From positions 1 to 64,000 of the forward strand of contig NW_026857641.1 of assembly GCF_026571515.1 (NCBI RefSeq): a stretch of 64,000 bases of DNA, in the 5' to 3' direction. The stretch's first letter is position 1; the number at the start of each line of letters is the position of its first letter. The position numbers and the translations under genes are program-made. This document shows, one piece after another, positions 1,621-58,694 of this stretch. Origin of the DNA: Ruditapes philippinarum. Its lineage: Eukaryota. The notes below the pieces were generated by a model, which saw only the letters and a program-made list of their open reading frames with translations, was not told the DNA's origin and made no database searches.

Positions 1621-3585
1621 TGAGATAGAGAAATCAAATGTTTACAAAAACGGATAGATAAGAAATCAATGTTTACACAACAAAGTAGAGAATCAATGTT
1701 ACAAAAAATAGATAGAGAAATCAATGTTACAAAAAGATAGATAGGAAATCAATGCTACAAAACAGATAGGATTAGAGAAAATCTGTTACAAAACGATAGA
1801 TAGAGAAATCAATGTTTACAAAACGAGATAGATAGAGAAATCAATGCTACAACAAAAAAGATAGTAAAGAAATCAAAGGTTACGAAAACAAAAAGAGAAT
1901 CAAATGTTACAAAACAGATTGTAAAGAAAATCATTGTAACAAACAAAAAGACGAAATCAATTGTTAAGAAACAGATAGATGGGAATTTCAATGGTTCAAA
2001 AAAGATAGATAGAGAAATTCAATGTTTACAAAACAGAATAGTTATAGAAATTCTTGTTCAAAAACAGATAGATAGAGAAATCCAATGGTTACAAAACAGA
2101 TTAGATAGAGAAATCCTGTTTACAAACAGATAGAGAAAATCAATGTTTCAAAACCAAAAGAGAAATCAATGTTACATAAACAATCGATAAAGAAATCATG
2201 GTTACAAAACAAAAAAAAGAATTCAAATGTTACAAAAAAGACTAGATAGAGTTTTAAATCAATGTTACAAAACAGATAGATAGAGAAATCAAATGTTACA
2301 AAAAACAGATAGATAGAAATCAATGTTACAAAACAGATTAGATTGAGAAATCAATGTTTACAAAACAGATCAATAGAGAAATTAATGTTAAAAAAAGATA
2401 TATAGAGGGGGGGGGGTCAAATTTACAAAAACAGATCGATAAAGAAATCCATGTTACGAAACATATAGAGAAATCCAATGTTACAAAAACGGACTTAGGA
2501 TAGAGAAATCAATGTTACAAAAAAGATAGATAGAGAAAACCAATGTTACAAAACAGGATAGAGGGAAATTAAATGTTTACAAAAACAGATAGAGAAATCA
2601 ATGTTACAAATATATAGAAGAAACAGTAGTAAGAGAAATCAATGTTACAAAACAAAAAGAGAAATCAATGTTACAAAACAAGATAGAGAAATCATGTTAC
2701 AAAACACTGTAGATAGGAAATCAATGTTACCAAAACAGTCGATAGAGTGAAATCAATGTTTCAAAAAAGATAGTAGAGAAATCAATGTTTAAACAAACGG
2801 TAGAGATAAAATGTTACAAAAACAGATAGATGGAAAATCAATGTTCATAAACGCAGTAGTAGAGAAATCAATGTTAAAAAACGATAGATAGAAAAAATCC
2901 TGTCTACAGAACAGAAAGAGAAAATCAATGTTACCAAACAGATAGAGAAATCAATGTTACAAAAAACAGCGATAGAGATTAAATGTTACAAAACAATATA
3001 TAGAGGAAATCAATGTTACCAAAAAGATAGATTAAGAAATCAATGTTACAAACATATGAGAATTTCAATGTTACAAACGGATCGATAGAGAAATCAATGT
3101 TCAAACAGATAGATTAGAGAAATCAATGTTACAAAACAGGATAGAGAAAATTTAATGTTACAAAACAGATAGAGAAATCAATGTTACAAAAATTATAGGA
3201 AACGATAGATAGAGAAATCAATGTTAAAAACAAAAAGAGAAATCAATGTTACAAAACAGATGATGAGAAAATCAAATGTTACAAAACACTGAAGTGATAG
3301 AGGAATAATTGTTACAAAACGATCCGATAGGAGAAATCAATTGTTACCCAAAACAGTAGTAGAGAAAATCATTGTTAACAAACGGATAGAGAAATCAATG
3401 GTTTACAAAACAGATGATAGAGAAATCAATGTTACAAACCGTAGGTAGATAGAGAAATCAATGTTTCAACATATAGAAATCAATGTTACAAAAACAGATC
3501 GATAGAAGAAATCAAGGGTTCAAAAAAGATAATAGAGAAAATCATGTTACAAGCAGAATCAGAGAATAATTTGTAACAAACGATA
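1621..3585. repeat. Tandem satellite/minisatellite, 26-30 bp unit (GATA)1-2GAGAAATCAATGTTACAAAACA
   Basis: Directly visible tandem array of ~2 kb. Unit length varies with the number of GATA tetramers. Confidence 0.95.
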
Positions 3586-23449: not shown

Positions 23450-26296
23450 AAACAACTGAAACATATTTCATATAGTGTTTTGTAGGATTTTTTTGCAAAT
23501 GTTGGCTAGTACTTTTGCGTATTTGAGCAGTATGGAATTATGCAATTTGGTAAGGACAATACCCTTTTTTCTGTAGCAAGATGTTCAACGGTGCATGCTA
23601 TTGAAAAATAAAAGATGTTTAAAATTGAAAGGTAAATTCAATATTAATAAATACCAAATCCTTATTATTTGTAAAGCATAGGTATTTGCTTTATGACTTC
23701 TACAAGGACTAATATTAGGTTAAAATGAAAATGGAAACAGTCTGTGCTGAATGTGCATATACATGCATTTCAAAATTTCTAAGTTTATTACTGGTGGAAA
23801 ATATGTTTGTGCTGTTGTAGTAGAACAGACTGGAAACATAAGTGACTTTGAAAAAACATCTTACGAAATTTCTTACATGTAATTCCAAATTGCAAAGTGA
23901 GCCAACCAATCCTGTGATTTCATTTATTACAGTAAACAATAATGTGATTTAAAAAAGAATATCAGCATCAGAATAAAATTTCTACACAGTAATAATAATA
24001 GCTGTAAAAAATAATAGATAACCAACTGTCTTAAATTCTTTCAGATTTAGAGATATCAAGATTAAAACAATAATTTGTAGACTTCTCAGCTGCAGACCGC
24101 TGTCCTGCATAAGATAGTTGTCTGTGTATAAATTATGTCATGTTCTTTTGATGAAAAAGTAAAAGTATTTTACAATTAACATGTGTAAATGTTGTAAAAA
24201 AGAGTAAACACAAAACAACAAAAGAAAAGTATACTTTACAGCATGAAATTTCAGAAAGACCAGTAATGTAACATATTTATTTTCTAGCACTACATGTTAT
24301 ATCTCTTCAGTTCTTATACTTGCAGCAAAGGGTTTGGTATTGTAAAAGTATCAGTATCAGTATCGATAAAATACCCGTATCGTTTCGTCAGTACCGGTAT
24401 CGGTATCGGACCGTTTCGTGAAGAACGATATCCAACCCTAATCACCATTGTAGATAAATATGTTTTATTTGAAATACAAATACAAGCAACAAACAATGTA
24501 ACTATGTGCAATGTAAAACATGAATAATGTAGGAGGAATTGCCACAGAGGAAGTGTTCACTATAATTATATTCTGTATAAGGAAAAAAACAAAGGACCAT
24601 AATTAAATAAAAAATTATTCAATCACAAAACCCCGACAATATGCGCCAGGTCACTTGATGACAAAGCTTCTGTGAAAGTTTGGTCAAAATCCGTTGAAAA
24701 ATGTAGGAGGAGTTGCGCACAGAAGAAATTGTTTACGCCCGCCCGCCCGTCCGCCCGCCCGCCGACATACCTCAATCTAATAACCAGTTTTTTCCTTCGG
24801 AAAACCTGGTTAATGGGAAAAAACAAAGGGCCATAATTAGGTCAAATATTATCCAATCACAAAACCCCGACAATATGCGCCAGAGCACTTGAGTACAAAG
24901 CCTCTGTGAAAGTTTGGTCAAAATCCATTGAGAAATATAGGAACAGTTGGGCACAGAAGAAATTATTCACTATATATTCTATATAAGGAAAAAAACAAAG
25001 GGCCATAATTAGGTCAGATATTATCCAATCACAAAACCCCAACAATATGCGCCAGGTCACTTGATGACAAAGCTTCTGTGAAAGTTTGGTCAAAATCCGT
25101 TGAAAAATGTAGGAGGAGTTGCGCACAGAAGAAATTGTTTACGCCCGCCCGTCCGCCCGCCCGCCGACATACCTCAATCTAATAACCAGTTTTTTCCTTC
25201 GGAAAACCTGGTTAATGGGAAAAAAACAAAGGGCCATAATTAGGTCAAATATTATCCAATCACAAAACCCCGACAATATGCGCCAGAGCACTTGAGTACA
25301 AAGCCTCTGTGAAAGTTTGGTCAAAATCCATTGAGAAATATAGGAACAGTTGGGCACAGAAGAAATTATTCACTATATATTCTATATAAGGAAAAAAACA
25401 AAGGGCCATAATTAGGTCAAATATTATCCAATCACAAAACCCCAACAATATGCGCCAGGTCACTTGATGACAAAGCTTCTGTGAAAGTTTGGTCAAAATC
25501 CGTTGAAAAATGTAGAGTTGCGCACAGAAGAAACTGTTTACGCCCGCCCGCCCGTCCCCCGACATACCTCAATCTAATAACCAGTTTTTTCCTTCGGAAA
25601 ACCTGGTTAATAACAAAGTTACAGCCAATAATAGCAAGAACAAGCAAAATTTGGACTTTTGACCTTGAAGGTCAAGGTCATTTATGGATGAAGGTCAAGG
25701 TTAGTGTGGTCTACTGAAAAGTCTTGTCCCAAGGGTTGCTGTGGCCAAGTATGAAGACAATACACCAAGAACTAAGAAAGTTATGATCCAGGTACAAGTT
25801 TGCGGACGGCAACGGCAACGTCGCCCCGACTATAACATAATACCTCTACTTTTTTTTCAAAAAAAAAGTCAAGCTAAAAAGGGTGCAGTGAAGTCAATGC
25901 ACTTTTTGAAAAAGGTGCAGTAAAGTCAGTGTACTTTCAACAAATGTAGGGCACAGTTCATTTTAATAAATATGTTTATAATATACCAATTAAAAAAACT
26001 CTTTTGAGTACCATATATTTATAGCTAAAGATAAGACTGATGTTACTTTAAACTATGAATATTACTAAAGTTATAAATGACTTTGCCACCAGTATAAAGT
26101 ATTTAGCCTGTCTGACAGTGTTTACAATTTAACAGTTTAGCTGTTCTTTATAAAGATTGTTGATTACTGCTAAATTTAACTTGCTGTCAGATATTCAAAT
26201 CCCATTCAAATTATAAGCAGATTGTTCCAGTTTAGATGCAAGGTAAAACACTGCATAAATTTAGCTGTGTGTTAAAGAAAACTAAAGGCACATAAC

Positions 26297-32580: not shown

Positions 32581-33445
32581 ACCAGGAGATGTCAGGTGAA
32601 TATAGTGGCAAGCTGCTAGGTAAATCTTGTGGAGAGATGCCAGGTGAATCTGGTGGCAAAATGCCAGGTGAATCTGGTGGCAAAATGCCAGGTGAATCTG
32701 TAGGCAAGATGTCAGGTGAATCTGGTAGCAAGATGCCAGGTGATTCTGGTGGCAAGATGCCAGAAGAATCTGGTGACAAGATGCCAGATGAATCTGGAGG
32801 CAAGATGCCAGACGAATCTGGTGGCAAGATGCCAGGTGAATCTGGTGGCAAGATGTCAGGTGAATCTGGTGGCAAGATGTCAGATGAATCTGGAGGCAAG
32901 ATGCCAGGTGAATCTAGTGACAAGATGCCAGGTGAATCTGGTGACAAGACGCCAGATGAATCTGGTGGCAAGATTTTAAGTGAATCTGGTGCAAGATGCC
33001 AGGTGATTCTGGTGGCAAGATGCCAGGTGAATTTGATGGCAAGATGCCAGGTGAATCTTGTGGCAAGATGCCAGGTGAATCTGGTGCGAGATGCCAGGTG
33101 AATCTGGTCGAGAGATGACAGGTGAATCTTGTGGCAAGATGACAGGTAAATCTGGTGGCGAGATGCCCGGTGAATCTTAGGCAAGATGACAGGTGAATCT
33201 GATGGCAAGATGTAAGGTGAATTTGGTGGCATGATGCTAGGTGAATCTGGTGGCAAAATGCCAGGTGAATCTGGTAGCAAGATGCCAGGTGAATCTGGTG
33301 GCAAGATGACAGGTGAATCTGGTGGCAAGATGCCAGATGAATCTGGTGGCAAGATGCCAGATGAATCTGGTGGCAAGATGCCAGGTGAATCTGGTGGCAA
33401 GATGCCAGGTGAATCTGGTGGCAAGATGTCAGGTGAATCTGGTAG
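32581..33445. repeat. 24-bp minisatellite (GGTGAATCTGGTGGCAAGATGCCA)n, ~35 copies
   Basis: Directly visible; some 23-bp units in the centre shift the frame. Confidence 0.97.
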
Positions 33446-43438: not shown

Positions 43439-44090
43439 TTTTATTAGCTCACCTGTCACAAAATGACATGGTGAGCTTTTTTGAACGCTTTTCGTCCTGT
43501 GTCCGTCCGTCCATTGTCCACCTGTTGTCCATTACTTTTACATAAAACAACATCTCATAAACCGCTGAGCAAATGTCATCCAAACTTCACAGGAATTTCC
43601 CTTTGGCGATCACCTTTAAAAATTGTTCATAGAATTTAATTCCATGCAGAACTCTGGTTGCCTTGTCTACCAAGTTTGTTCAAATGAAAGCCTTGGGATC
43701 AAAATTGGCCCTGCCCCAGGTGGTCATTGATTTTCCTTATATGTCTATGAAAAAAACTTAAAAAGTCTTATTTTCAAAAACATCTTCTAATGGATGTCTA
43801 GTTGTCTACCAAGTTTGTTCAAATAAAAGCCCTGGGGTCAAAATTAGCCCCTCCCCAGGGGGTCATTTATTTTCTTTATATGTATATTTTAAAAATGAAA
43901 AAATCTTCTTTAAAAAAACCCCAAAGAGTTAGAGCTTAGATATTTAGTGTTAAACATCTTCTAATAAGTTTCTACCAAGATTTTTCAAATAAAATTCATG
44001 GGGTCAAAATTGGCCCCGCTCAAGGGGTCATTGATTTTCCTTATATGTCTATATACAAACTAAAACAATCTTCTTTTAAAAAACCCAAGT
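43439..44090 (+). mobile_element. HINE/pearl-like element with three tandem core repeats
   Basis: Terminal hairpin AGCTCACCTGTCACAAAATGACATGGTGAGCT, (GTCC)n, and three units containing GG(G/A)TCAAAATT(G/A)GCCC..GGTCATT. Confidence 0.8.
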
Positions 44091-46039
44091 GATCATTTAA
44101 ATTTTCTGTTTGTGAAACATTATTTATTATTTTGTGTCATTTAATAATACTGTTATGAGTTGAAAACTTTTTTGCCCCTGTAAATGATGCATGTGATGGT
44201 TGCTAGGAATATTTTTCAACCAGTCAAGCTGTAATTTTATCAGAATATATAACTTTGTTTCAGTTAAAGACTAAGAAAAGCAAACAAAATCAATATAAAT
44301 TTAATGTTAAAAAAAAACAACCTCAATTGATCGTTTTTTACCTTGGGGATTTTCTTTTAGAGATAAAATGATAAAAAATGTCAGCATACAGTACAGATTT
44401 GTTTTTATCATAAAGCTTTAAGTAGCAATCAATATAAAACAGAGCTTTTTTCTCATATCGTCATTCAAGTGTGTGTGTTTCAAGGTTGATTTATTACTGA
44501 TAATTGTTTAAATAGTAAACTATGCTTTACTGAAGATATATACATATATATACATCACAGTACCGGTACACATACATCATTTACTGGTGTTTAATATTCA
44601 GTAGAGGATTTAAAAGCATACAGGTAGTTTATATTTTGTCTACTTTATCATTAAACAGGTTTATATTTCAAAGTTTCATTTTTGGCATAGGGAAAAACAG
44701 GTCAGGGAAGACTTTATTTACTTTTTGTAACATTCTTATTCAAGCAACTTAAATGATGTACATGCACATAATATTACATTGATAGCAAATAAATTGTTTA
44801 ATAAAGATGGGTTCATAATGAAGCTTTATGGTGAAATTAAAGAGATTGATTTATGGTTACACATTTAATATCAGGATTTATTGACAATAGTTTATGATAA
44901 TACTCTTCATAAAAGGAGGTAGTGATATCGGAATCAGTGTGCACTTGATTCACATTGTAGGTAAAAACTGGAAAATTAGAAATATTTTCATTTATGTAAA
45001 TGAATGTATTTAACCAGTGCTAAGATTGATTACAGGATGTTATATTATGTGTATCTGTAGCCAGTGTATAGGTATTTATTGCATTTAAAGATATTTTAGT
45101 CAGATCTTAATCTTAGCCAATGAGGGAGATGACTCTGAAATCCCTCCCTTAAAACCCACTTGTTCCAAAGCTGTATAGTTGTGAAAACTTCCTGTCCATC
45201 TGCAAATTATTTTTCCCATACAATTCTACATATATCATAATTTCAGCTAGCTAATAAATGCAACAACTTTCATCTGAGTTATATATATGCATCATAATTA
45301 AACAGTTACTGACCTATTTTCCTGTTGTTAAACATTTCATTGCCACAAAAAATATGTCATGAAATGAATGATAAAATATAACCAATTATGTATTTTGAAG
45401 AAACCAAAGAACTAAAATAATGATATTTTGCTTTTTTTTTCAATGTAAATAGGATGTGCTTGTAGGTAGGTTTCCTATAGTAAAGTAAAGTAAAGTAAAT
45501 TTTTATGGATGATTGAAAAGTGATTGTGATTGAAAGCTGGCAGTATATGGATATATGTAGATATATGTCATATCAGATCATTTATCCCCATTCATATGTA
45601 ATTTGTCAAATATAATGCTAAATTCTGTAAATAAATCTTGCTAAACATTTCACAGATCATCCATTATACACCAATTCACTTAAAGCCTATTTGAGGACAA
45701 TTATTTAAAATTCAAAATTGCAGCCATTTTGTTAAAATGATGGAGTACTAGATAACCTTAGTTTATTATTGCTATGTGTACATGAATATCTATATTCATA
45801 GACTGTGCATACATATGCATATGTTAGTTGACATGATGATAAATTTGTTTACAATTGTTATCTGTCAAGGATTTTCTTGTAGGGTTTTTGTTACCAACAA
45901 TGCACTTCTTACTCTGTTATAATGATCAGTGTGATATCTTGATATAAAACTGTTGAATGTTTTACATAATGACACTTTCAGGAAATTACATACACTAATT
46001 TTATATCTGCTAAACTCTTCCCCTCCTCTCATTGGATAA

Positions 46040-46330
46040 TGGCTAACAGCCTAACACTTTGTTAAGAACTGCTAACTCTTCTCTGTCTACATATTATCAA
46101 AAACTGCTAGCTCCTTCCCACCTGTTATATTAGAACTGCTGACTTCCCCTGCCTGTTTTCAAGAAATGCTGACTTTTCCCACCTGTTTTTAAGAACTTCT
46201 GATTATCCTTACCTGTAATCAAGAACTGCTGACTCTCCCCTCCTGTCTTTAAAGACATCAGAATTCTTTTTCCTATTATCGACAACAACTGCGTAATCTT
46301 CCGTAACCAATATCAAGAACTTCTAATTCT
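46040..46330. repeat. Degenerate ~30-bp minisatellite
   Basis: Repeated 'aagaactgctgactct.ccc.cctgt'. Confidence 0.65.
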
Positions 46331-46854
46331 TTAAATGCTGAAACTTCTAGTGCTCATCTTTAGCCGCCAGTATACAGCCAGACCAGCATGTCCTAAACTT
46401 TTGGCCAAATTGTTATCAGTATATAATATAATTGGAAATAGACAGTTGGACAAGTACGTTCAGAGGAATACAGCATGTTAAAGGCAAATTTGTACATTAT
46501 AGTACATGACTGTATATAAACATGTAAAAAATCAGTAATATAACTGCTTCTTCATAGGTAATTTACCTGTATAGTACCTTGTTTGTTTCATAACAAGAAA
46601 TTCATGTTTGTTTTAATTTGCCAAAAAAATGTTGTAGGAGGAAATACTTGTATACCACCATTCAGAAAGTATAATTATTTTGTAAATGCGATAGGCCTAC
46701 TATACCTAGCTGAACTCAGTAAAAATAAAGTTCAGTGTATTTCATTACCATATTTGCATGATAAATTTGTAATGAACAAAGTATTCCTTTCTATCTGGTT
46801 ATCTATCATTATCTTTAATTTACAGACAGTGAATACAAGTGAATACCAAGCACC

Positions 46855-47018
46855 ATGTTTGACTTGCCAGCCCATATAGGCACCATGTCGGGCCTGGGCC
46901 TGCTGTGGACGTCCTTATCTGGAGTGTATGTTTTGAAGGGAATGTACCAAACTGTTGCAGGCTCGAGCACCAGTCGTGATTTTGATGGTGAGAAAGGAAT
47001 ATTGAGATTCAACAAAAG
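46855..47018 (+). CDS. SRD5A3: SRD5A3/polyprenol(al) reductase-like, coding exon 1
   Basis: Acceptor TTTACAG ends at 46825; in-frame upstream TGA; ACCATG start; MFDLPAHIGTMSGLGLLWTSLSG...ILRFNK-AG|GTAACC (phase 2). Confidence 0.8.
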
Positions 47019-47293
47019 GTAACCATGTTTTTTTTTTCATTTAAAGTTTTCTTAATTTATTCATTATATTCAATATTTATTTAGCTCTTCCCTACACAGA
47101 TGACATATAGAGATCTAAAAGTTGACTCAGTTTCCATCACGTGTTTTGTTTACCTGTTTTGACAGTTTTTCTTGTTTTGCAAGATTTTTATCTTGTTCTC
47201 AAATTAGCACCCTGTGAGTGTTTATGAAAAATAGGAAAAAAGTGCCAAAATATTTATCAAAATAAAACATTGCCTTTCTTGAGTTTCTTGATA

Positions 47294-47470
47294 AGATTTT
47301 TTTAAATCAGTATGGTAGAAATAAGGCAAGATTTTTTTTAATCAGTATGGTAGGAATAAGGCAAGATTTTTTTTAAATCAGTATGGTAGGAATAAGGCAA
47401 GATTTTTTTTTAAATCAGTATGGTAGGAATAAGGCAAGATTTTCTTAAATCAGTATGGTAGGACTAAGGC
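47294..47470. repeat. 34-35 bp tandem repeat x5 in intron
   Basis: AAGATTTTTTTTAAATCAGTATGGTAGGAATAAGGC units. Confidence 0.95.
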
Positions 47471-47585
47471 TTCAGGTACAATTAGGTTTAAGATTTGATA
47501 TCTAAATGAAAACAAAATCATACAGAAAGATCTAAATTTGTCAAGAAGTTCAGGAACATACAGTGTATTTCTCTCAAATTTTCAG

Positions 47586-47731
47586 ACCAATAAGACGACT
47601 GTTCCTTGAGCTAGGCATGAATGGTGCAATATGTATAGCTGTATATAACTCATACTGGTTTGGAATCACAAACTTTGGTTGGCTACAACGTTTTGTTGAC
47701 AGAGTATCAAACCCTGGTCTAGTTACTGCAG
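47586..47731 (+). CDS. SRD5A3: SRD5A3-like coding exon 2
   Basis: TTTTCAG|..|GTAAGC; phase 2 to 1; RPIRRLFLELGMNGAICIAVYNSYWFG...VTA. Confidence 0.85.
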
Positions 47732-48267
47732 GTAAGCCTATGATTGAAGGCTGTAGCAATAGCCTGGCATGCTTTTTGCCAGTTTTTTTCCATTTTTAAA
47801 GTGGAGGGGCATAAATATTTGCTGTTGTCTGTCCATCTTGCAGTCCCGTCTGTATACTGACAAAACGGTGGACAGCAACATAGGTGTTGTGTGTCTTATA
47901 GACATGTTTCTAGTTTAAAGTTTCAAGAGAATGATAAATTTAAATATCTTTAAATAAAACATGTAGAAGAAATTCCACATAATGTCTGGAACAAACAGTT
48001 TTCTCATAGTTTTTTTTTTTCATTATCCAAAAACTTAAATTTTGCTACCTTTATAGTAAAAGTTTCCTTCATTTAGCTGCCAGCAATACCATTTCAAAAA
48101 CATCAAATTATTTCTCTTGTTTATCAGATGAATCCAAATGCTTTTTACCCCTAGCATTGCTGGAGATCAATGTGATCAGCCCATGCCACAATCTGACTTA
48201 AGTTCAGATCTACCTATTTCTTATATGTAGATCTGATGACGACTGTATATGTTACACCTTCTTTATA

Positions 48268-48983
48268 CAGTAAAAACCCTCAATTAAGACCACCATCGGG
48301 ACTGGGCCAAAGTGGTCTTAATTGCGGGGTGGTCTTAATTGTGGGTATTCTTATCATTGTTTACACACGTCATGACCAGGGCCTATTTAAGTTATTTTGT
48401 ATGAACAAACAATACATGTATCTTAACCTGCAAATACAATATGAAGGTATGTTATAATGTTACATCTGATGGGAAGAAAACATATTTCTGAAGAAATTTA
48501 ATATCAAATTTTCTTTGTTCTGATTTCAATAGTAATTATTGTATAATGTACATTATTCACATATCATATCAGGCATTATTTCTTCACAAAACAAATGTGC
48601 ATAAAGCAACATTAAACCACTATGAAATTAACATTCTCACCTTTTTTCATTAAATATCCCATAAATAACAGTTTTTGACACCTTGTGTAATCAAGTGTCA
48701 TGCCTAAGAGCAATCAAGCAGATAATAACAACATAACAACACATTTAAGATCTAGGAAGGTGTTGATTTTAATATCAGTGGTCTCAATAGTGAGGTCAAA
48801 TAAAGAACAAAATAATGAATTGGGACTGAATTTGGTGGTCTTAAAAGTGGATAAGTGAGGTGGTCTTAATTCTGGATCATTTTACCATTGACATAAAGAA
48901 CAGAAAATTCCGTTCTTTTAAAAACTGGTCTTAAAAGCGGGGTGGTCTTAAATCCGAGGTGGTCTTTAGTAGGGATTCTACTG
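48268..48983. mobile_element. Tc1/mariner (pogo/Tigger-like) MITE
   Basis: TA TSD; TIR CAGTA(A/G)AA(A/T)CCCT; multiple GTGGTCTTAA subterminal motifs. Confidence 0.85.
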
Positions 48984-49449
48984 TAATTTGGATTACCAGA
49001 GAAAGCTATTTTTAGCCATGCATTCAAACCAGTTTTTTCAAAGGCAATAGAAGTATCAAAATACCGTTATCCGTGGAAGTTAAACAAATTGTTGATTTGT
49101 ATTAGTAAAAAAAATGTTTGAATTAAACATGAAAAAATAGAGTCACTTTTTTATGGGCAATATTGTTCTGCCAGTTAACCTGCCAGCCATGTTTGTTTTC
49201 GAAATCGTGAAAATTACCTACTCAGTATTGTTTTTCCCAGGGTTAAAATTAGAAACCATATGGCTTTCAAAATAATGAAAGCTCCCCGAGCTTTGTATTT
49301 ATGTGGAGCATTATTTAGAGCTAATTTTAATCAGATTGCCAGTGCATGACTGACTAACATTTAACTTTGTTGATATAACAAATATAACTGTCAATAATTT
49401 AGAACAGCTTTAAACTCAACAAAATAATATGATTTTTGTTATATTTCAG

Positions 49450-49647
49450 ATGAATTATCTGTAGTTGTTGGAAGTAGTCTCCTGTTTGCACGCACATGCG
49501 TTAAATGGTATCAGAGTGTCTATATTAATGTATTTAGTACAACAACAACACTTGGACTTGTAGACTGGTTAGCTCCTCATATATACTCACTGTGCGCTGG
49601 TCTCACAATCCTAGCCGAGGCTCCAGCTTTAGATGGCACTGGAAGAG
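49450..49647 (+). CDS. SRD5A3: SRD5A3-like coding exon 3
   Basis: TTTCAG|..|GTCAGT; DELSVVVGSSLLFARTCVKWYQSVYINVFS...AGLTILAEAPALDG aligns to human ..RRLFECLYVSVFS...VGLTVLSQVPMDG. Confidence 0.9.
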
Positions 49648-50025
49648 GTCAGTTAGTTCTGTTAAATTGATCAGATTTTAGATCAAATATTCAAAAAATA
49701 ATGAAAGTCATTGTACTCACATCACCGTCAAGGTCACACTTTGGTTAAAATTGTGTGTGTAAATTTGTATATCCAAAACTATTGAAAGAAATGGGTTGAA
49801 ACTTTCAAAGCATAATAGGTCACTGTCCAATGTCCAAAACTCTTTAACTTGGATTTTGACAGAATAATGGCTTTCTTTGAATATAGAAAATTCTACATTA
49901 TCTAGACTTTTGTTCTATGCCAGGCACTGAAAATAGTCGAAAATTCTACATTATCCAGGCTCTTGTTTTATTATCAAGCACTGAGAATAGTCTAGCACAC
50001 TGTCCTACTGACAGCTTTTATTTAA

Positions 50026-50573
50026 CCCTTTCCCTCATGAGCATATTGTGAAAAATGGCCGTTTTTACTGAAAAGCCTCCTGTTACAAGTTCAAACTGCT
50101 ATGAAACTATGAAAAATGCTTCAATACTAATCAAACTTGGCACAAATGTTGACTGGACCATTGCCTTTGTAACAACATGCTCAGTCTTAAATTTCCTGTT
50201 ACCATGGCATTGACTCGATTTTTTCCATCAAAATTTATTTCAAAGTGCTGCAACTTCTCAAGGGATCGAGATAGAGTCAAAGGCTTTTCAGCGTTGGTTA
50301 CACGTAACCTTATAATCAACCTGGGGTCATTTTTAGCCTCTCACATGTCAAAAATTTTCATCCCCCTTCTGGCAACCCCCCGATGTATCTTTTGGATGGG
50401 GGGGGGGGGGGGGGCGCGGCGCCAAAAAAGTGCTCACTTTTTTTAGCAACATTTCTCAAACGAAAACATGTGTTTGGGGCCCAAATAGGACATTTTTTCA
50501 CTATTTCAGGCCTAAAAAAGGGGGGGGGGGGGGGTAGAAAGTGCGTTGTTTCGCGTATATATGAGGTAAAGGG
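50026..50573. mobile_element. piggyBac-type MITE
   Basis: TTAA TSD (50022-50025 and 50574-50577); TIR CCCTTT(C/A)CCTCAT. Confidence 0.85.
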
Positions 50574-51559
50574 TTAATAGAACATTTTTTAAGTCACATA
50601 GGGTATGTTTCGCCTTGCTGGTAGATATTTTTTTATAAAGAAAAGTGAGGTGTTTGTTGTGGTTGTGAGCAGTATAATCATTAATTAATAGGACTTTATT
50701 TCACTTTTATCTACTTTTCTATCTATTTAAAGTGATGAGGCATGATGAAGCAAAAAAAACGACAAAAAAAAACAAAAAAAATTACCTACCGGTAATTACC
50801 GGATACATACAAAAGTTTGATATATAACTATTGAATGTAAATCATGCAATGATCTTATATAAGAATAATTGTCGAAGGAAAGAAATTTACTTAGGTGTTA
50901 TGCTTTGTATTTTCATAATTATTACACTGGTTTTTATTTTCAAGTTAAATGTTTCACAGTAAGAAAAGTAATTGATAAATGGAGTTTATATTGTTAAAAT
51001 TGTATTTACCTATGATCCAATAAGTAGTATGCTCCACTACTCAGTGCTAGATAGATAATTTAGTATTAAAATTAATGAACATAAACAAAAACTCTACCAA
51101 AAATGATTAACCAATGCTTATGAGTGGTTCATGACAATACATGTTGCTCATTTTGTGGGAATTAGAGAAATAATCTTATATAAAATCTTTTTTTTTTTAG
51201 AAAATTTTAAAATATGTATGCAGTTTGACCAGGCTTTACAACACAATGGTCTGGCCACATTCAAATTTTCATTTCAGTATTTCCATAATCATATTGATAT
51301 AAATGATAATGAGCTATTTAAAAAATGAAAACTGGAAAAGACTTTTAAATAAATTCAGCAAGATAAAGGTTACATTTCACAATACCATAATTTTATATAC
51401 ATGTAATATTTATTGTGAGGGCTTTACAATATGTTTGCCTGACCAACCAACTTCAAATTTTCATCTTGTTAAGTCCATAGTTAGTGGGCAGTTACAAAGA
51501 TGGAATCTGCACAAGTCCATTTAATAAATTCAGCAGAGGAAGGCTGGACTTTCACAATA

Positions 51560-51800
51560 ATGAGCCGCGTCACGACAAAACCAACATAGTGTGTTTGCGA
51601 CCAACATGGATGCAGACCAGCCTGCGCATCTGCACAGTCTGATCAGGATCCATGCTGTACGCTTACCAACCCTATTAAAAGTAGAGAAACTGATAGGGAA
51701 CAGCATGGATCCTGATCAGAGTGCGCGCCGATGCGCAGGCTGGTCTGGATCCATGCTTGTCGCAAACTCACTATGTTGGTTTTGTCATGACACGGCTCAT
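51560..51800. mobile_element. Foldback MITE family A, full-length copy
   Basis: ~100-bp inverted arms around a short spacer; ends 66 bp upstream of coding exon 4. Confidence 0.92.
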
Positions 51801-51866
51801 ATTATGATTGGTGCTTACTGTACTTGTAAAATACAACTTGTGAAGTATTGTTGTATATGTTTACAG

Positions 51867-51989
51867 GTTGGTTCCACTGGTCAGATTTCAGTTGGCACCA
51901 TCTAGCAGGTGTGGCAGCATTTGCTTTGATATCACACTTTGACTACAAACTGCAGTACCAGCTGGCGAAATTCAGGAAAAATAGGGCAG
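51867..51989 (+). CDS. SRD5A3: SRD5A3-like coding exon 4
   Basis: TTTACAG|..|GTAAGA; WHHLAGVAAFALISHFDYKLQYQLAKFRKNRAG aligns to human [33 protein letters not shown]. Confidence 0.92.
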
Positions 51990-52924
51990 GTAAGAAGGCA
52001 TGATTGAGGGTCAAGGTCAATTTTCAAACATTTTGTGCCTGTTTTGTTTGCTCACATAGCTTAATAAGGAGATGATTGGATTAGTAGCTATGGATGCTGG
52101 TTTAATCCTTGGAAGGTGTAGGTTCTGTGTGACAATTGATGTCTGACATCGAGTCTAATGATCATGTTAAAACTGATTCAGAAATTATGAGGGATAAGTA
52201 ATACGTTACTTGTTGAGAAGTTGTGAAATTTTTACAGGTCAGTTATTTGCGTAAAAAAAGAAATCAAACAAACTTTATTTCTTTTATTTTAATCACAGCC
52301 CTAAAACTGATTTCCGCTCTTTAAAAGCCATCATATTCACACCTATATAATAGGTATTAGCAAGGTTTAAGATGTCAGCCATTTATGTAAGCAATATGCT
52401 CAATTTCTTTAACCTTAAACTTGATGGAACCAACAGTAATTAACCTTTTCCATGTTTTATTTATTTATGTTTTACTTTATTTGATCTATATTGGTGGGAA
52501 AGGCTTAACACTTTTGGTTCCAGTTACAGCAGAATACATCCAAATTTTGATGATTTTTTTATGAAAACTTAAAACTTGTTTTAATGTCAGAGTAAAAATG
52601 TTGATGAGTGTGCAGATGTGATAAAAGCTAGCAAATTTATAAATGTAGTATACTCAGTGATTTATGAGGTGAAATTTTAGTAATAAAAAAAGAAAATGTC
52701 ATATTTTGCATAGTATTACATTCAGCTGGATTGGAAACACTTTGCTGAAACTAAAAGTATATTTTTTTTAAGTTTTATATTTAGAAGATTTATTTAACTT
52801 GCATAGTGGTGTATTGCTTTACGTGCTGTATTTAAAAATTTTAAGATTGTGTATATATATCAGAAATTATTCATATTGTGAGTAGTGTATTATTTAAAGT
52901 GATGTAATTATTGTTGATTACCAG

Positions 52925-53026
52925 GCCATGTGGTGAGCGAGGATCATAAACTACCAAAAGGAGGAATGTTTGAATATGTGTCATGCCCACAACTCCTCAA
53001 TGAAATTCTCATACATGGAGCCATCG
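52925..53026 (+). CDS. SRD5A3: SRD5A3-like coding exon 5
   Basis: CCAG|..|GTAAGT; HKLPKGGMFEYVSCPQLLNEILIH matches the steroid 5-alpha-reductase motif H.IP.G..FEYVS.P....E. Confidence 0.95.
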
Positions 53027-53235
53027 GTAAGTTTTGTTTATAATACACCTTTATTATTATTATTGTAATTTAATTCCAAGTTAAGAATATGGAAACTAAT
53101 TATATTTTAGATGTTCTTGTCCTTTTTACGGTAATCATTATCTCTTCCCAAACTGCAAGTATTTTTAAAAAATATCTTTTTCTAACATTAGGTACAAAAA
53201 GATATTTATTTTCTTTATTTTTTTCATTATATCAG

Positions 53236-53393
53236 GTGTAGCGCTAGGCTTCAAGCACCAGGCCTGGTGGTTGTGTACTGGCTATGTTACCATGAGTCAT
53301 CTGGTTCGAGCCCTAGGGCGTCAACAATGGTACCGCAAGAAGTTTGAATCCTACCCTCCAAGCAGAAAGGCTATTATCCCATTCTTATTATAA
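53236..53393 (+). CDS. SRD5A3: SRD5A3-like coding exon 6 (stop)
   Basis: ATCAG|; GFKHQAWWL...QQWYRKKFESYPPSRKAIIPFLL* matches the family C-terminus Y..KF..YP..RKA..PF. Spliced CDS is 891 nt / 296 aa. Confidence 0.95.
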
Positions 53394-54125
53394 AGATGGA
53401 AAAAATATCACGACTTTTTTTTAGAAAATGGACTTGACAAATATATTTTGCCCCACTTACAGGCACATCTAAGAAGATTTATATATATTTTCTGATTTTT
53501 GTACCAAATGTTCATTTATTTTATTACCTTCAAAAGGGGTCATATGGCAAGCTCACTGTTCATTTATCAGTAAATCTTTTGAGTTCAATTTTATAGACAG
53601 ATATGTACAATTGATAAGTCTTCATTAACTGTTAGCCTGCTGGAAGCAGCTGGTTCTGACCATCTGATCAGTGCAGACCAAGATCAGGTGGCACATCTGT
53701 GCTGTCTGATTATGATCTGTACTGTTAGGGGTATTCAATCATTAAATATTTCAAATTTTCAGTAAAAATGATGACTGGTTTTGTCCAGATTGAAAGATTG
53801 ACAAGTTCATTTAAGATATTTGAAGTTGTAAGGATTAATTCATAAAATCTTCAATGACTTTTTTACTTATATTGTAATGTACTTACAAATAAAATAATGT
53901 CATTATCATGATAATAGTGTGATTGTTTAAAAAATGGTTGTGAAGATTTTTTTATTTTTGTTTGAATATTTTAAAGTGTAATCAGATGTGTATGATTTTT
54001 TGTCTGTAATTATCTTATTTCTTATTGTCTATCCTCTTTATCAGCAAAAAATCATTTATTTGTTGTAAGATTCTTATTACCGTTATGTTTTTGAATTTGC
54101 TATATTTCGGCTGTTATACAATAAT

Positions 54126-54590
54126 AATATTTGTCATATGATGCGGTTCGGACCCAAATATCCGTCCCGAGGGGCGGTAACGAAGCTTGCCAAGTTACCA
54201 CCAGTTGGCAGCTTCCCTAGGGACGGATATCCGATCCGAACCGCAAACATGTCAGATATTTTTTCTTGCATATTCTGCCATATTGCTTCATATTTAAAAT
54301 GGTTAACCTCAATATGTTATATGTCCATGGAAATTAAAGTCATTTCATCCATAACTATTTTCGTACAATAGTGTATGAACTTGCAACTTAAATAAAAGCG
54401 GCGAAATGACGTCATCATAAGCGCATATTTCCCTTCTAAAATGACGTCATTTTAACGCGGTTCATTCATAAAGTGCGCTAAAATGACGTTGTTGTTTGGC
54501 ATGCGACTCATCTAGCACCCTCCATACCAGTTGAAATTTCCGGCATGGGTAAAACTCACGGAAACGCCAGTCTGCTATGCAAGAAAAATA
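54126..54590. mobile_element. Non-autonomous element with internal palindrome and TTCTTGCATA/TATGCAAGAA inverted motifs
   Basis: Hairpin at 54126-54260 (GCGGTTCGGA..ATATCCGTCCC / GGGACGGATAT..TCCGAACCGC); inverted motifs at ~54263 and ~54577. Confidence 0.55.
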
Positions 54591-57148: not shown

Positions 57149-57877
57149 CAACAAAAATTTATCTGACTTCCCCGTTCAGAGGTTTTGCCTATTTTCATGT
57201 TGATAATTATGGTAGTAGCTCTGTGGTGTATAATGTATTTAGTCTAAGAGGATTTTGGTATGTCTCAAATCACACAGGTCATATGACATCGAGTTTGGTA
57301 GAACATTTATCAAATCATTACAAACATAACAATTATAATCTAGCTATTGTTGTCATCACTTTCATTAAGTTCTCAACTTTCTGTAAGCTTGATAGCTTCC
57401 CAATTGGTAAAAATTAAAGTCTGTTTCAGAATTTGTACCTACAGAAGCAAGGAGCAAACAATTATCATTTTTGTGACCAAATCATTGAATCTGAAATTAC
57501 TTGATGCTACAAACACACTGGTGTTCCACTTCTTAAATGGTTTTCTTATAAATTCATTCCACTCGACAGAAAAAGAAATAACATCAGATTCCAGTTGTAA
57601 GTTATTGTAAAAACAAGTGGTGTCAGTAAGACAGCATGCACAACTATTCAAAGTGCTTGATACAAGCCTAGATGTTGGAATTATCAAAGGATTATTTTAT
57701 TCAAAATAAATTAAAATCCATGTTGAGTTATAGGCCTTGAAGTGTCCTCTATGATCTCAGACGTGTGGAGTAACAAGCAAATGTGGTTGATGAAATATAA
57801 GTTGAACTCTAATAAGCGGACACTGAAGCTCAAGTAAATATGATAGCCCCACCATTACTCAGTCAAGATAAATTGAC

Positions 57878-58694
57878 ATCAAGCAATACCTAGACTTACA
57901 TGCAAGAAAACTATTCTTTAACTCATACATCTTGCCACACTTAGATTATTGCTGTACTATCTGGGGCAATTGCAGCAATGATCTGATCAATGAAATCATA
58001 AAATTTCAAAAAAGAGCAGCAAGAATAATTCTAGATAAAAGTTACGATGCACCCTCCAGTGATTTGTTTAAAGAACTAAATTGGATGAGATTTGATGAAA
58101 GAATGAAATACAAAAAAGCAATCATAATGTTTAAATCTATCAATGACATACCATATCCACAATACATGCAAAGTAAATTCCAATTTGTTTACCAAAAACA
58201 TGAGCGCAACTTAAGATCTACAAATAGTTCAGACATAGCTGTTCCACGACCTAAGAAAGAATTTTTCAGAAAATCCCTAGTATACTCTGGCCCTAAATTA
58301 TGGAATAATATCCCTCTTAACATAAGAAAATCTAACAGTTTAGGAATTTCAAGCTTCATATCTATCTTGGCATTTCTCATCATTAAATTAATCATTTTAT
58401 AACAAAATTAGAATCCAATCATTTGATGAACCACCTAAAACGTATTTCCCACTTTGTTTAATTTGATATGTACTTCTTTAACATGTATTATGCTATGAAT
58501 GGACTGTAAATATTTAACATGTATTTCTTGTTCTGACAATTTCAATGTACATTGTAACACATTGTTATTGCAATTATTTTTGTAGTATTGTAGTGGTATA
58601 TATTGTAAATTATGTTTTTATTAGAGGCCCACATGGAAGATTGGGAAACCAAATGAGTAGCCTCGATAAATAAAGCCTTTACTTACTTACTTAC
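57878..58694 (+). mobile_element. 5'-truncated CR1/L2-group LINE (RT C-terminal region plus 3' UTR)
   Basis: IKQYLDLHARKLFFNSYILPHLDYCCTIWG...FQKRAARII...LNW...F.YSGPKLWNNIP motifs; AATAAA followed by an (ACTT)n tail at 58679-58694. Confidence 0.9.

What the first reader, a model, noticed from the sequence alone, without database searches (positions are those of the whole stretch)
46855..53393. Intact SRD5A3-like gene with systematic loss of active-site residues: candidate pseudoenzyme or new-chemistry paralog
Seen: six exons splice in matching phases into a stop-free 296-aa ORF that keeps the family scaffold motifs (H.LP.GG.FEYVSCP, RKN.AG, WY..KF..YP..RKAIIPF). Compared with human SRD5A3 (sequence recalled from memory), the family-conserved polar residues differ at almost every site: HFY->RLF (exon 2), H..RR..E->R..VK..Q (exon 3), Q...H->D...Q (exon 4), PNY->PQL (exon 5), NQ->SH and SH.FY->RQ.WY (exon 6). 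Established: the last His corresponds to human H296, whose mutation abolishes activity, and PNY..E belongs to the NADPH pocket of 5-alpha-reductases. Inference: a retained fold with a remodelled pocket points to selection for a non-catalytic role (lipid binding, scaffold or regulator in dolichol/steroid metabolism) or a different substrate, not to pseudogene decay.
Basis: partly seen in the sequence, partly recalled or inferred. Interest (0 to 1): 0.8.

Follow-up and report, generated by a model that had tools for sequence, protein, structure and literature searches.

The report
Ancient disarmed polyprenal reductase paralog
This clam carries a second, expressed and long-conserved copy of the dolichol-pathway enzyme gene SRD5A3, shared with other bivalves, segmented worms and a lamp shell, that has lost most residues the working enzyme keeps and so likely acts as a non-catalytic membrane binding or partner protein.

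Summary
The gene is real: six GT-AG exons give a 296-aa protein identical to a RefSeq 'polyprenol reductase-like' model of Ruditapes philippinarum. RNA supports three of five junctions directly. A canonical SRD5A3 lies elsewhere in the genome. The gene belongs to a second SRD5A3 clade (support 99/98) with bivalve, annelid and brachiopod members, so the duplication predates their split; a bivalve-only origin is rejected (p-AU 0.003). Bivalve-type members keep 3-5 of 15 SRD5A3 core residues (18 of 18), canonical ones 12-15 (80 of 81), yet they evolve as slowly as the canonical gene. Lost: YGK, HFY, the RR..E glutamate and the invariant TM4 tyrosine. Kept or gained: several NADPH-side residues (R206, E237, R269, Y277, R273). 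The clade also has its own cytosolic loop motif (29 of 30 vs 0 of 81), and the bivalve-type members have less hydrophobic helices. Best reading: a conserved pseudoenzyme, likely still binding NADP(H) (0.5). A reductase with a new polar substrate is the main rival (0.3). No activity was tested.

The parts
46855..47018 (+). Coding exon 1 (aa 1-55): predicted TM1 and loop 1; YGK replaced by AGS (46957-46965, register uncertain)
   Evidence: an acceptor-like AG upstream suggests a 5' UTR exon (not mapped)
47586..47731 (+). Coding exon 2 (aa 55-104): TM2; HFY replaced by R58-R59-L60
49450..49647 (+). Coding exon 3 (aa 104-170): TM3 R118..V121-K122..Q125 and TM4 Y149-S150 (S150 at the tyrosine invariant in 81 of 81 canonical-type rows)
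   Evidence: 3' end seen joined to exon 4 in RNA
51867..51989 (+). Coding exon 4 (aa 170-211): TM5 with D195, Q199, R206 and the start of the clade loop motif RKNRAGH
52925..53026 (+). Coding exon 5 (aa 211-245): loop 5, PKGG, P232-Q233-L234..E237, H241
53027..53235 (+). Intron absent from the canonical SRD5A3 of this genome, present in two other bivalve-type loci
53236..53393 (+). Coding exon 6 (aa 245-296, stop): TM7 with S265-H266, R269, R273-Q274, Y277 and C-terminal RKAIIPF
53394..53470 (+). Start of the 3' UTR (transcript contigs run at least this far)
   Evidence: table 8

Best explanation
The gene is an expressed, conserved second SRD5A3 copy whose product is predicted to keep the seven-helix 5-alpha-reductase fold but likely no longer reduces polyprenal, and would instead work as a non-catalytic membrane protein that likely still binds NADP(H) or a similar anionic ligand. 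Shown: gene structure, expression, a canonical copy elsewhere, clade membership and the residue pattern. Inferred mechanism: in this family NADPH gives a hydride and a tyrosine/acid pair polarises and protonates the carbonyl. The bivalve-type proteins have lost the SRD5A3-invariant tyrosines of TM2 (Y66) and TM4 (Y157), the TM3 glutamate (E132) and the PxY tyrosine, so that step has no obvious catalyst. The TM5-TM7 cofactor side keeps R206, E237 and Y277 and gains R269 and R273. The clade-specific cytosolic loop (RKNxxGHxV) and Gly-rich, weakly hydrophobic helices would serve as partner-binding surfaces, making it a ligand-sensing or scaffold subunit in ER lipid metabolism. The partner is unknown.
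For: Core score 3-5 of 15 in 18 of 18 bivalve-type rows vs 12-15 in 80 of 81 canonical-type rows. Y157 (81/81) aligns with the second Tyr of TECR KNCSYY. Taking that as Tsc13 Y168 and PxY as Y256, these are the two residues whose double mutant is inactive in yeast (PMC10864336, passages); both are absent in 18 of 18. A canonical copy supplies the essential activity. Constraint matches the canonical gene: Ruditapes-Mercenaria 89.9% vs 84.8%, Ruditapes-Mactra 67.6% vs 70.2%. pN 0.22-0.25 against saturated pS 0.76-0.85. 9 of 10 coding variants that I checked were synonymous. The 12 non-bivalve-type members lose different core residues (scores 5-12), as expected when catalysis is no longer what is selected. 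Loop motif in 29 of 30 vs 0 of 81. Fold: 7c83 Z 18.5, rmsd 3.2 A, 233 aligned.
Against: No activity or binding was measured. SRD5A3's own catalytic residues are not mapped in any paper I could read; the assignment is by homology to Tsc13/TECR and SRD5A2. The bivalve-type proteins have new invariant polar residues near the pocket (R58/R59, D142, Y149, D195, Q199, H241, R269, R273), which could equally be a new active site; Y149 lies one residue from the lost tyrosine. NADP(H) binding is doubtful too: only 3 of the 13 hydrogen-bonding residues listed for PbSRD5A are identical (5 of 13 in the canonical clam copy), and loop 1 (Y32/R34) is remodelled. Two non-bivalve-type members keep 12 of 15 core residues and may be enzymes. 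No superposition at residue level could be run.
Confidence: 0.5

Rival explanations
1. It is an active NADPH-dependent reductase with a rebuilt pocket for a more polar or anionic substrate (for example a conjugated sterol, oxylipin or prenyl derivative), with Y149, D195, H241 and R59 as the new catalytic set.
For: R206, E237, Y277 and R288 are kept and R269 is gained. There are many invariant new polar residues after a long stem branch of 0.78 followed by slow change. TM1, TM2 and TM7 are less hydrophobic, mean GRAVY 0.14 vs 0.42. Substrate pockets vary in this family while NADP residues are conserved (PMC7591894 section 8). SRD5A1/2, TECR and SRD5A3 already use different catalytic residues.
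Against: Loop-1 YGK and N271 on the cofactor side are lost. Pocket positions vary freely within the clade (125 = Q/R/S, 233 = Q/H, 274 = Q/H/R), and this species tolerates H118R, R122K and G63E. Non-bivalve-type members do not share the new residues.
Confidence: 0.3
2. It is a non-catalytic protein that has also lost cofactor binding and serves as a structural or transport subunit of another membrane complex, possibly outside the ER.
For: Gly content 9.6% vs 5.0% and low helix hydrophobicity. The most clade-specific conservation is in a cytosolic loop. TECR acts on SERCA2b apart from its reductase role, and a similar role is proposed for TECRL (PMC7949109, passages).
Against: Invariant buried E237, R206, R269 and Y277 are most simply explained by a bound ligand. 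No localisation data.
Confidence: 0.12
3. It is still a polyprenal reductase, a tissue- or stage-specific isoform of SRD5A3.
For: Database names say so. Single substitutions of this kind occur in canonical-type proteins (PxY Tyr absent in 31 of 81).
Against: No canonical-type row scores below 9 of 15, while all bivalve-type rows score 3-5. Residues present in 79-81 of 81 (Y66, E132, Y157, Y247) are absent in 18 of 18. The names are automatic.
Confidence: 0.07
4. It is a young duplicate decaying towards a pseudogene.
For: Low read depth in the raw RNA runs (about 2-6 on exons from 5-12% of a run). Eight departures from bivalve-conserved residues in this species vs 1-3 in its four closest relatives.
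Against: Open, spliced, same length across Venerida, Myida and Unionida. Identity matches the canonical gene's, pN is far below pS, and the clade is ancient.
Confidence: 0.01

Closest known systems
SRD5A3 / Dfg10 / PPRD polyprenal reductase (PF02544)
   Same: Nests among SRD5A3-type proteins in the tree. Four intron positions and phases are shared with the canonical clam gene. Keeps PxGG.F, E237, WY and the C-terminal motif.
   Different: 28% identical to the same genome's SRD5A3. Lacks YGK, HFY, E132, Y157, Y247, N271 and mostly H280. Has an extra intron, a clade loop motif and lower hydrophobicity.
SRD5A1/2 and PbSRD5A steroid 5-alpha-reductases (7BW1, 7C83)
   Same: Same predicted fold (TM 0.65; Z 18.5). 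R171, E197, R227 and Y235 equivalents present.
   Different: TM3 has Thr at the position where SRD5A1/2-like outgroup rows have Tyr. N160/D164 positions are D/Q; H231 position is R. The E57 position could not be aligned with confidence.
TECR/Tsc13 and the vertebrate paralog TECRL
   Same: Same family. TECRL is a precedent for a paralog known through a regulatory phenotype (PMC7949109, passages).
   Different: Lacks both tyrosines needed by Tsc13/TECR (by alignment). Different branch of the family. TECRL's catalytic status was not established in what I read.

Membership tests
SRD5A (Steroid_dh) family | PF02544 domain above cut-off | tested here: met
   65.8 bits vs cut-off 22.6, E 5.5e-18
SRD5A (Steroid_dh) family | Seven-helix SRD5A fold | tested here: met
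   AF2 model pLDDT 76, pTM 0.79, seven long helices; best matches 7c83 and 7bw1
SRD5A (Steroid_dh) family | NADPH-contacting residues of TM5-7 and loops 1, 3, 5 | tested here: inconclusive
   3 of 13 PbSRD5A hydrogen-bonding residues identical, several conservative changes, loop 1 remodelled; binding not measurable here
SRD5A3 polyprenal reductase (orthologue) | Groups with canonical lophotrochozoan SRD5A3 | tested here: not met
   Separate clade 99/98; grouping with canonical bivalve rows rejected, p-AU 0.0029
SRD5A3 polyprenal reductase (orthologue) | Core motifs YGK, HFY, RR..E, TM4 Tyr, E...Y, NQ, H.WY | tested here: not met
   3 of 15 core residues in the window protein; 15 of 15 in the canonical copy
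SRD5A3 polyprenal reductase (orthologue) | Reduces polyprenal to dolichal with NADPH / complements dfg10 | not testable with these tools
   needs assay; pathway step from PMC11250103 (abstract start and passages)
SRD5A1/2 steroid reductase | Q-E-Y catalytic triad (Q56, E57, Y91) | tested here: not met
   T119 (18 of 18) at the column where outgroup rows have Y6/F1; TM2 carries RRLF; no solved-structure alignment covered TM2-3 of SRD5A2
TECR/Tsc13 | Tyr168 and Tyr256/248, K140-R141, E144 | tested here: not met
   S150, L234, V121-K122, Q125
Pseudoenzyme (functional class) | Intact, expressed, under purifying selection, with an active paralog present | tested here: met
Pseudoenzyme (functional class) | No catalytic activity on any substrate | not testable with these tools
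   needs biochemistry

The most novel reading that the evidence does not exclude
An undescribed branch of the 5-alpha-reductase family, older than the mollusc-annelid-brachiopod split, has been refitted in bivalves either as an NADP(H)-sensing membrane pseudoenzyme that regulates a lipid-pathway partner through its RKNxxGHxV loop, or as a reductase of an unknown lophotrochozoan signalling lipid.
Probability: 0.55. Interest if true: 0.7.

Novelty: new variant of a known kind. Interest (0 to 1): 0.5.

Why it matters
The gene and its orthologues are annotated as polyprenol/polyprenal reductase, which is probably wrong for function. The clade is a natural mutagenesis series for SRD5A3, whose catalytic residues I could not find mapped: comparing it with 81 canonical-type proteins singles out Y66, R129, E132, Y157, E243 and Y247 as testable candidates. 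What 5-alpha-reductases do in molluscs is called a mystery in PMC6848481 (abstract), so an extra family member with its own pocket is a concrete candidate. Interest is limited because disarmed paralogs are common in enzyme families (general knowledge), and nothing here ties this one to a phenotype.

Tried and rejected
Heterodimer with canonical SRD5A3: complex prediction gave no answer (score 0.00, alignments not used, controls not folded), which is no evidence either way. First RNA lay over 44000-54500 was swamped by repeats and listed no exon joints. The run search listed no holder on record as RNA. dN/dS against L019-L021: dS saturated, and the tblastn pieces include a few intron-derived codons, so only pN and pS are quoted. 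ESM Atlas gave only generic family clusters. Uemura 2008 and Cantagrel 2010 were not held; the H296 result was seen only in one review passage, where it concerns androgen-producing activity, and its match to Q274 is by motif position, human numbering recalled. Literature: one search found 0 papers with 'polyprenol reductase' and 'bivalve'; listings showed no paper on this clade (listings only; subscription journals and supplements not seen). Earlier scan findings: none. Retrogene origin rejected, since introns are shared. Bivalve-only duplication rejected. Assembly or splice artefact rejected.
Full report
Gene structure. The six exons (46855-47018, 47586-47731, 49450-49647, 51867-51989, 52925-53026, 53236-53393) have GT-AG introns and phases 2,1,1,1,1, and give 296 aa without an internal stop. 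The protein is 100% identical to P0015, RefSeq XP_060596430.1 'polyprenol reductase-like' of Ruditapes philippinarum, and 99% identical to four Logan-derived proteins. Of four runs from four studies laid on 51810-53470, one raw RNA run (X24) and two contig sets (X5, X8; RNA is a guess) show both the exon 4-5 and exon 5-6 joints, and their loose ends before exon 4 are the end of exon 3. The other raw run (X22) showed none of these joints. Depth in raw reads is low. A search of the own genome with P0015 gave six matches in the window and two elsewhere, both canonical SRD5A3.

A canonical copy exists. The family search of the genome found canonical SRD5A3 on contigs C8644 and C15234 (near-identical, probably alleles), two SRD5A1/2-like genes on C2659, one more on C8938 and a TECR-like exon on C8585 (labels from motifs I recognised). 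The C8644 gene encodes P0232 in five exons. It is 28% identical to the window protein. Four intron positions match in phase: two exactly in the alignment, two in gappy loops. The window's fifth intron is absent from the canonical gene but present in L020 and L021. The gene therefore arose by DNA duplication, not retroposition.

Relatives. Full-length orthologues at 55-90% identity are named from Mercenaria, Mya, Dreissena, Mactra and Sinanodonta, with a partial one from Potamilus and many unnamed Logan proteins. The profile-free search of 1.84 billion representatives added more distant proteins that group with them: Paralvinella, Owenia, Dimorphilus (annelids), Lingula (brachiopod) and unnamed ones. 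In a 45-row IQ-TREE tree the 17 paralog rows form one clade (99/98). Canonical Lingula and bivalve SRD5A3 fall in another (99/98). Holding the bivalve paralogs with canonical bivalve SRD5A3 is rejected (p-AU 0.0029). A 71-row quick tree agrees (99). Lingula, Mactra, Mercenaria and Ruditapes each have both copies. The duplication thus predates the mollusc-annelid-brachiopod split (inference). Long-branch attraction is a caveat, but a shared motif argues against it: R[KR]NxxGHx[VT] is in 29 of 30 paralog rows and 0 of 81 canonical-type rows. No named oyster, mussel, scallop, gastropod or cephalopod member was seen, but I looked up names for only 29 proteins in three calls, and many rows are unnamed.

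Rows counted. 18 bivalve-type rows (6 named, 12 unnamed but nested among them; near-duplicates dropped), 12 non-bivalve-type rows (4 named; two truncated rows dropped), and 81 canonical-type rows (hits of 285-345 aa outside the clade, plus P0231 and P0232; none is shown active here). Rows are related, so counts are not independent events.

Selection. The paralog changes as slowly as the canonical gene: Ruditapes-Mercenaria 89.9% vs 84.8%, Ruditapes-Mactra 67.6% vs 70.2%. Against three metagenome loci pN is 0.22-0.25 while pS is saturated at 0.76-0.85. Nine of ten coding variants checked from the two RNA lays are synonymous; the table was cut, with 584 rows not shown. The stem into bivalves is long (0.78) and the branches after it are short: a burst of change, then fixation.

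Residues. Over 15 SRD5A3 core positions, canonical-type rows score 12-15 (80 of 81; one scores 9), bivalve-type rows 3-5 (18 of 18; window 3) and non-bivalve-type rows 5-12. Absent in all 18: Y66 (80/81 canonical), E132 (79/81), Y157 (81/81), Y247 (81/81), N271 (69/81), K41, H64, Q201, R128 and the PxY tyrosine. Y157 aligns with the second Tyr of KNCSYY in the TECR homologue 22of. Kato et al. report that Tsc13 Y256 and Y168 matter most, that the double mutant is inactive, and that K140 and R141 also contribute (PMC10864336, abstract and passages); matching their numbers to these motifs is my inference. Kept: R122 (K here), R206, H218, E237, Y277 and R288. By the HMMER alignments to 7c83 and 7bw1 and the NADPH contact lists (PMC7815742 section 8; PMC11301207 passage), R206, E237, R269 and Y277 equal SRD5A2 R171, E197, R227 and Y235. 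R273 sits at H231, D195/Q199 at N160/D164, and Q274 one residue after the NADPH-contacting His. So the cofactor side is remodelled rather than erased: 3 of 13 PbSRD5A contacts are identical, against 5 of 13 in the canonical clam enzyme.

The PNY Tyr is Y in 50 of 81 canonical-type rows and SRD5A2 has Phe there. The Q...H His is H in 40 of 81. H118 and R122 are kept by 17 of 17 other bivalve-type rows. The last His survives in 3 of 18 and is Gln in canonical Lingula.

Structure. The AF2 model (pLDDT 76, N-terminal 47 residues poor) matches PbSRD5A (TM 0.65; Z 18.5, rmsd 3.2 A over 233) and SRD5A2 (Z 17.8) about as well as the canonical clam model does (TM 0.60). Bivalve-type proteins are less hydrophobic (GRAVY 0.14, range 0.06-0.27, vs 0.42, range 0.14-0.62) and richer in Gly (9.6% vs 5.0%), most so in TM1, TM2 and TM7. 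In SRD5A2, TMs 1, 2, 4 and 7 line the lipid pocket (PMC7591894 section 8). This argues against a long polyprenyl substrate (inference).

Reading. A strongly conserved, expressed protein with an active paralog, no recognisable proton-donor residues, a partly kept cofactor side and a clade-specific cytosolic loop is best read as a pseudoenzyme that binds a ligand and a partner (0.5). A new reductase is the serious rival (0.3), because new invariant polar residues line the pocket and the family has changed catalytic residues before. It fails the membership test for SRD5A3 orthologues but passes for the SRD5A family.

Novelty. The gene is in RefSeq under an automatic name. Five literature searches (listings only) and passages of two reviews (PMC11301207, PMC12965858) showed no description of this clade; subscription papers and supplements were not seen. 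Other papers were seen as passages only: PMC7591894, PMC7815742 (plus one section each), PMC11250103, PMC6848481, PMC4281381, PMC7949109. Verdict: new variant of a known kind, interest 0.5.

Noticed in passing
G000:C8644 (L013:1306-8490) and G000:C15234 (L010): Canonical SRD5A3 appears on two contigs at 95-100% identity per exon, probably uncollapsed alleles; bivalve canonical copies have Q..RR..E and lack the Q...H histidine.
   Followed up: partly
G000:C2659:260332-277010 (L004-L007): Two tandem SRD5A1/2-like genes about 15 kb apart; a further SRD5A-like gene on C8938 and a TECR-like exon on C8585.
   Followed up: no
window 49491-49505 and 47608-47610: H118R, R122K and G63E are private to this species among 18 bivalve-type rows; the Logan-derived proteins of the same type share them, so they are not assembly errors. 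Possible further loosening of the pocket.
   Followed up: partly
P0003 and P0021: Mya arenaria has two near-identical RefSeq proteins of this paralog, each on a contig of the same length.
   Followed up: no
window 32587-33443: 24-bp tandem array, 36 copies, 86% matches, open in several frames (SGGKMPGE-like repeat).
   Followed up: no
window 51559-51802, 50000-50670, 48200-49260: High-copy intronic repeats with very deep RNA cover; the 51559-51802 element looks like an inverted-repeat (MITE-like) element.
   Followed up: no
window 57872-58399: 176-aa open frame that resembles the 3' end of a LINE reverse-transcriptase ORF (recalled resemblance; no Pfam hit).
   Followed up: partly
window 1623-3552, 24567-25611, 47293-47470: Satellite arrays of about 30, 403 and 35 bp.
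   Followed up: no
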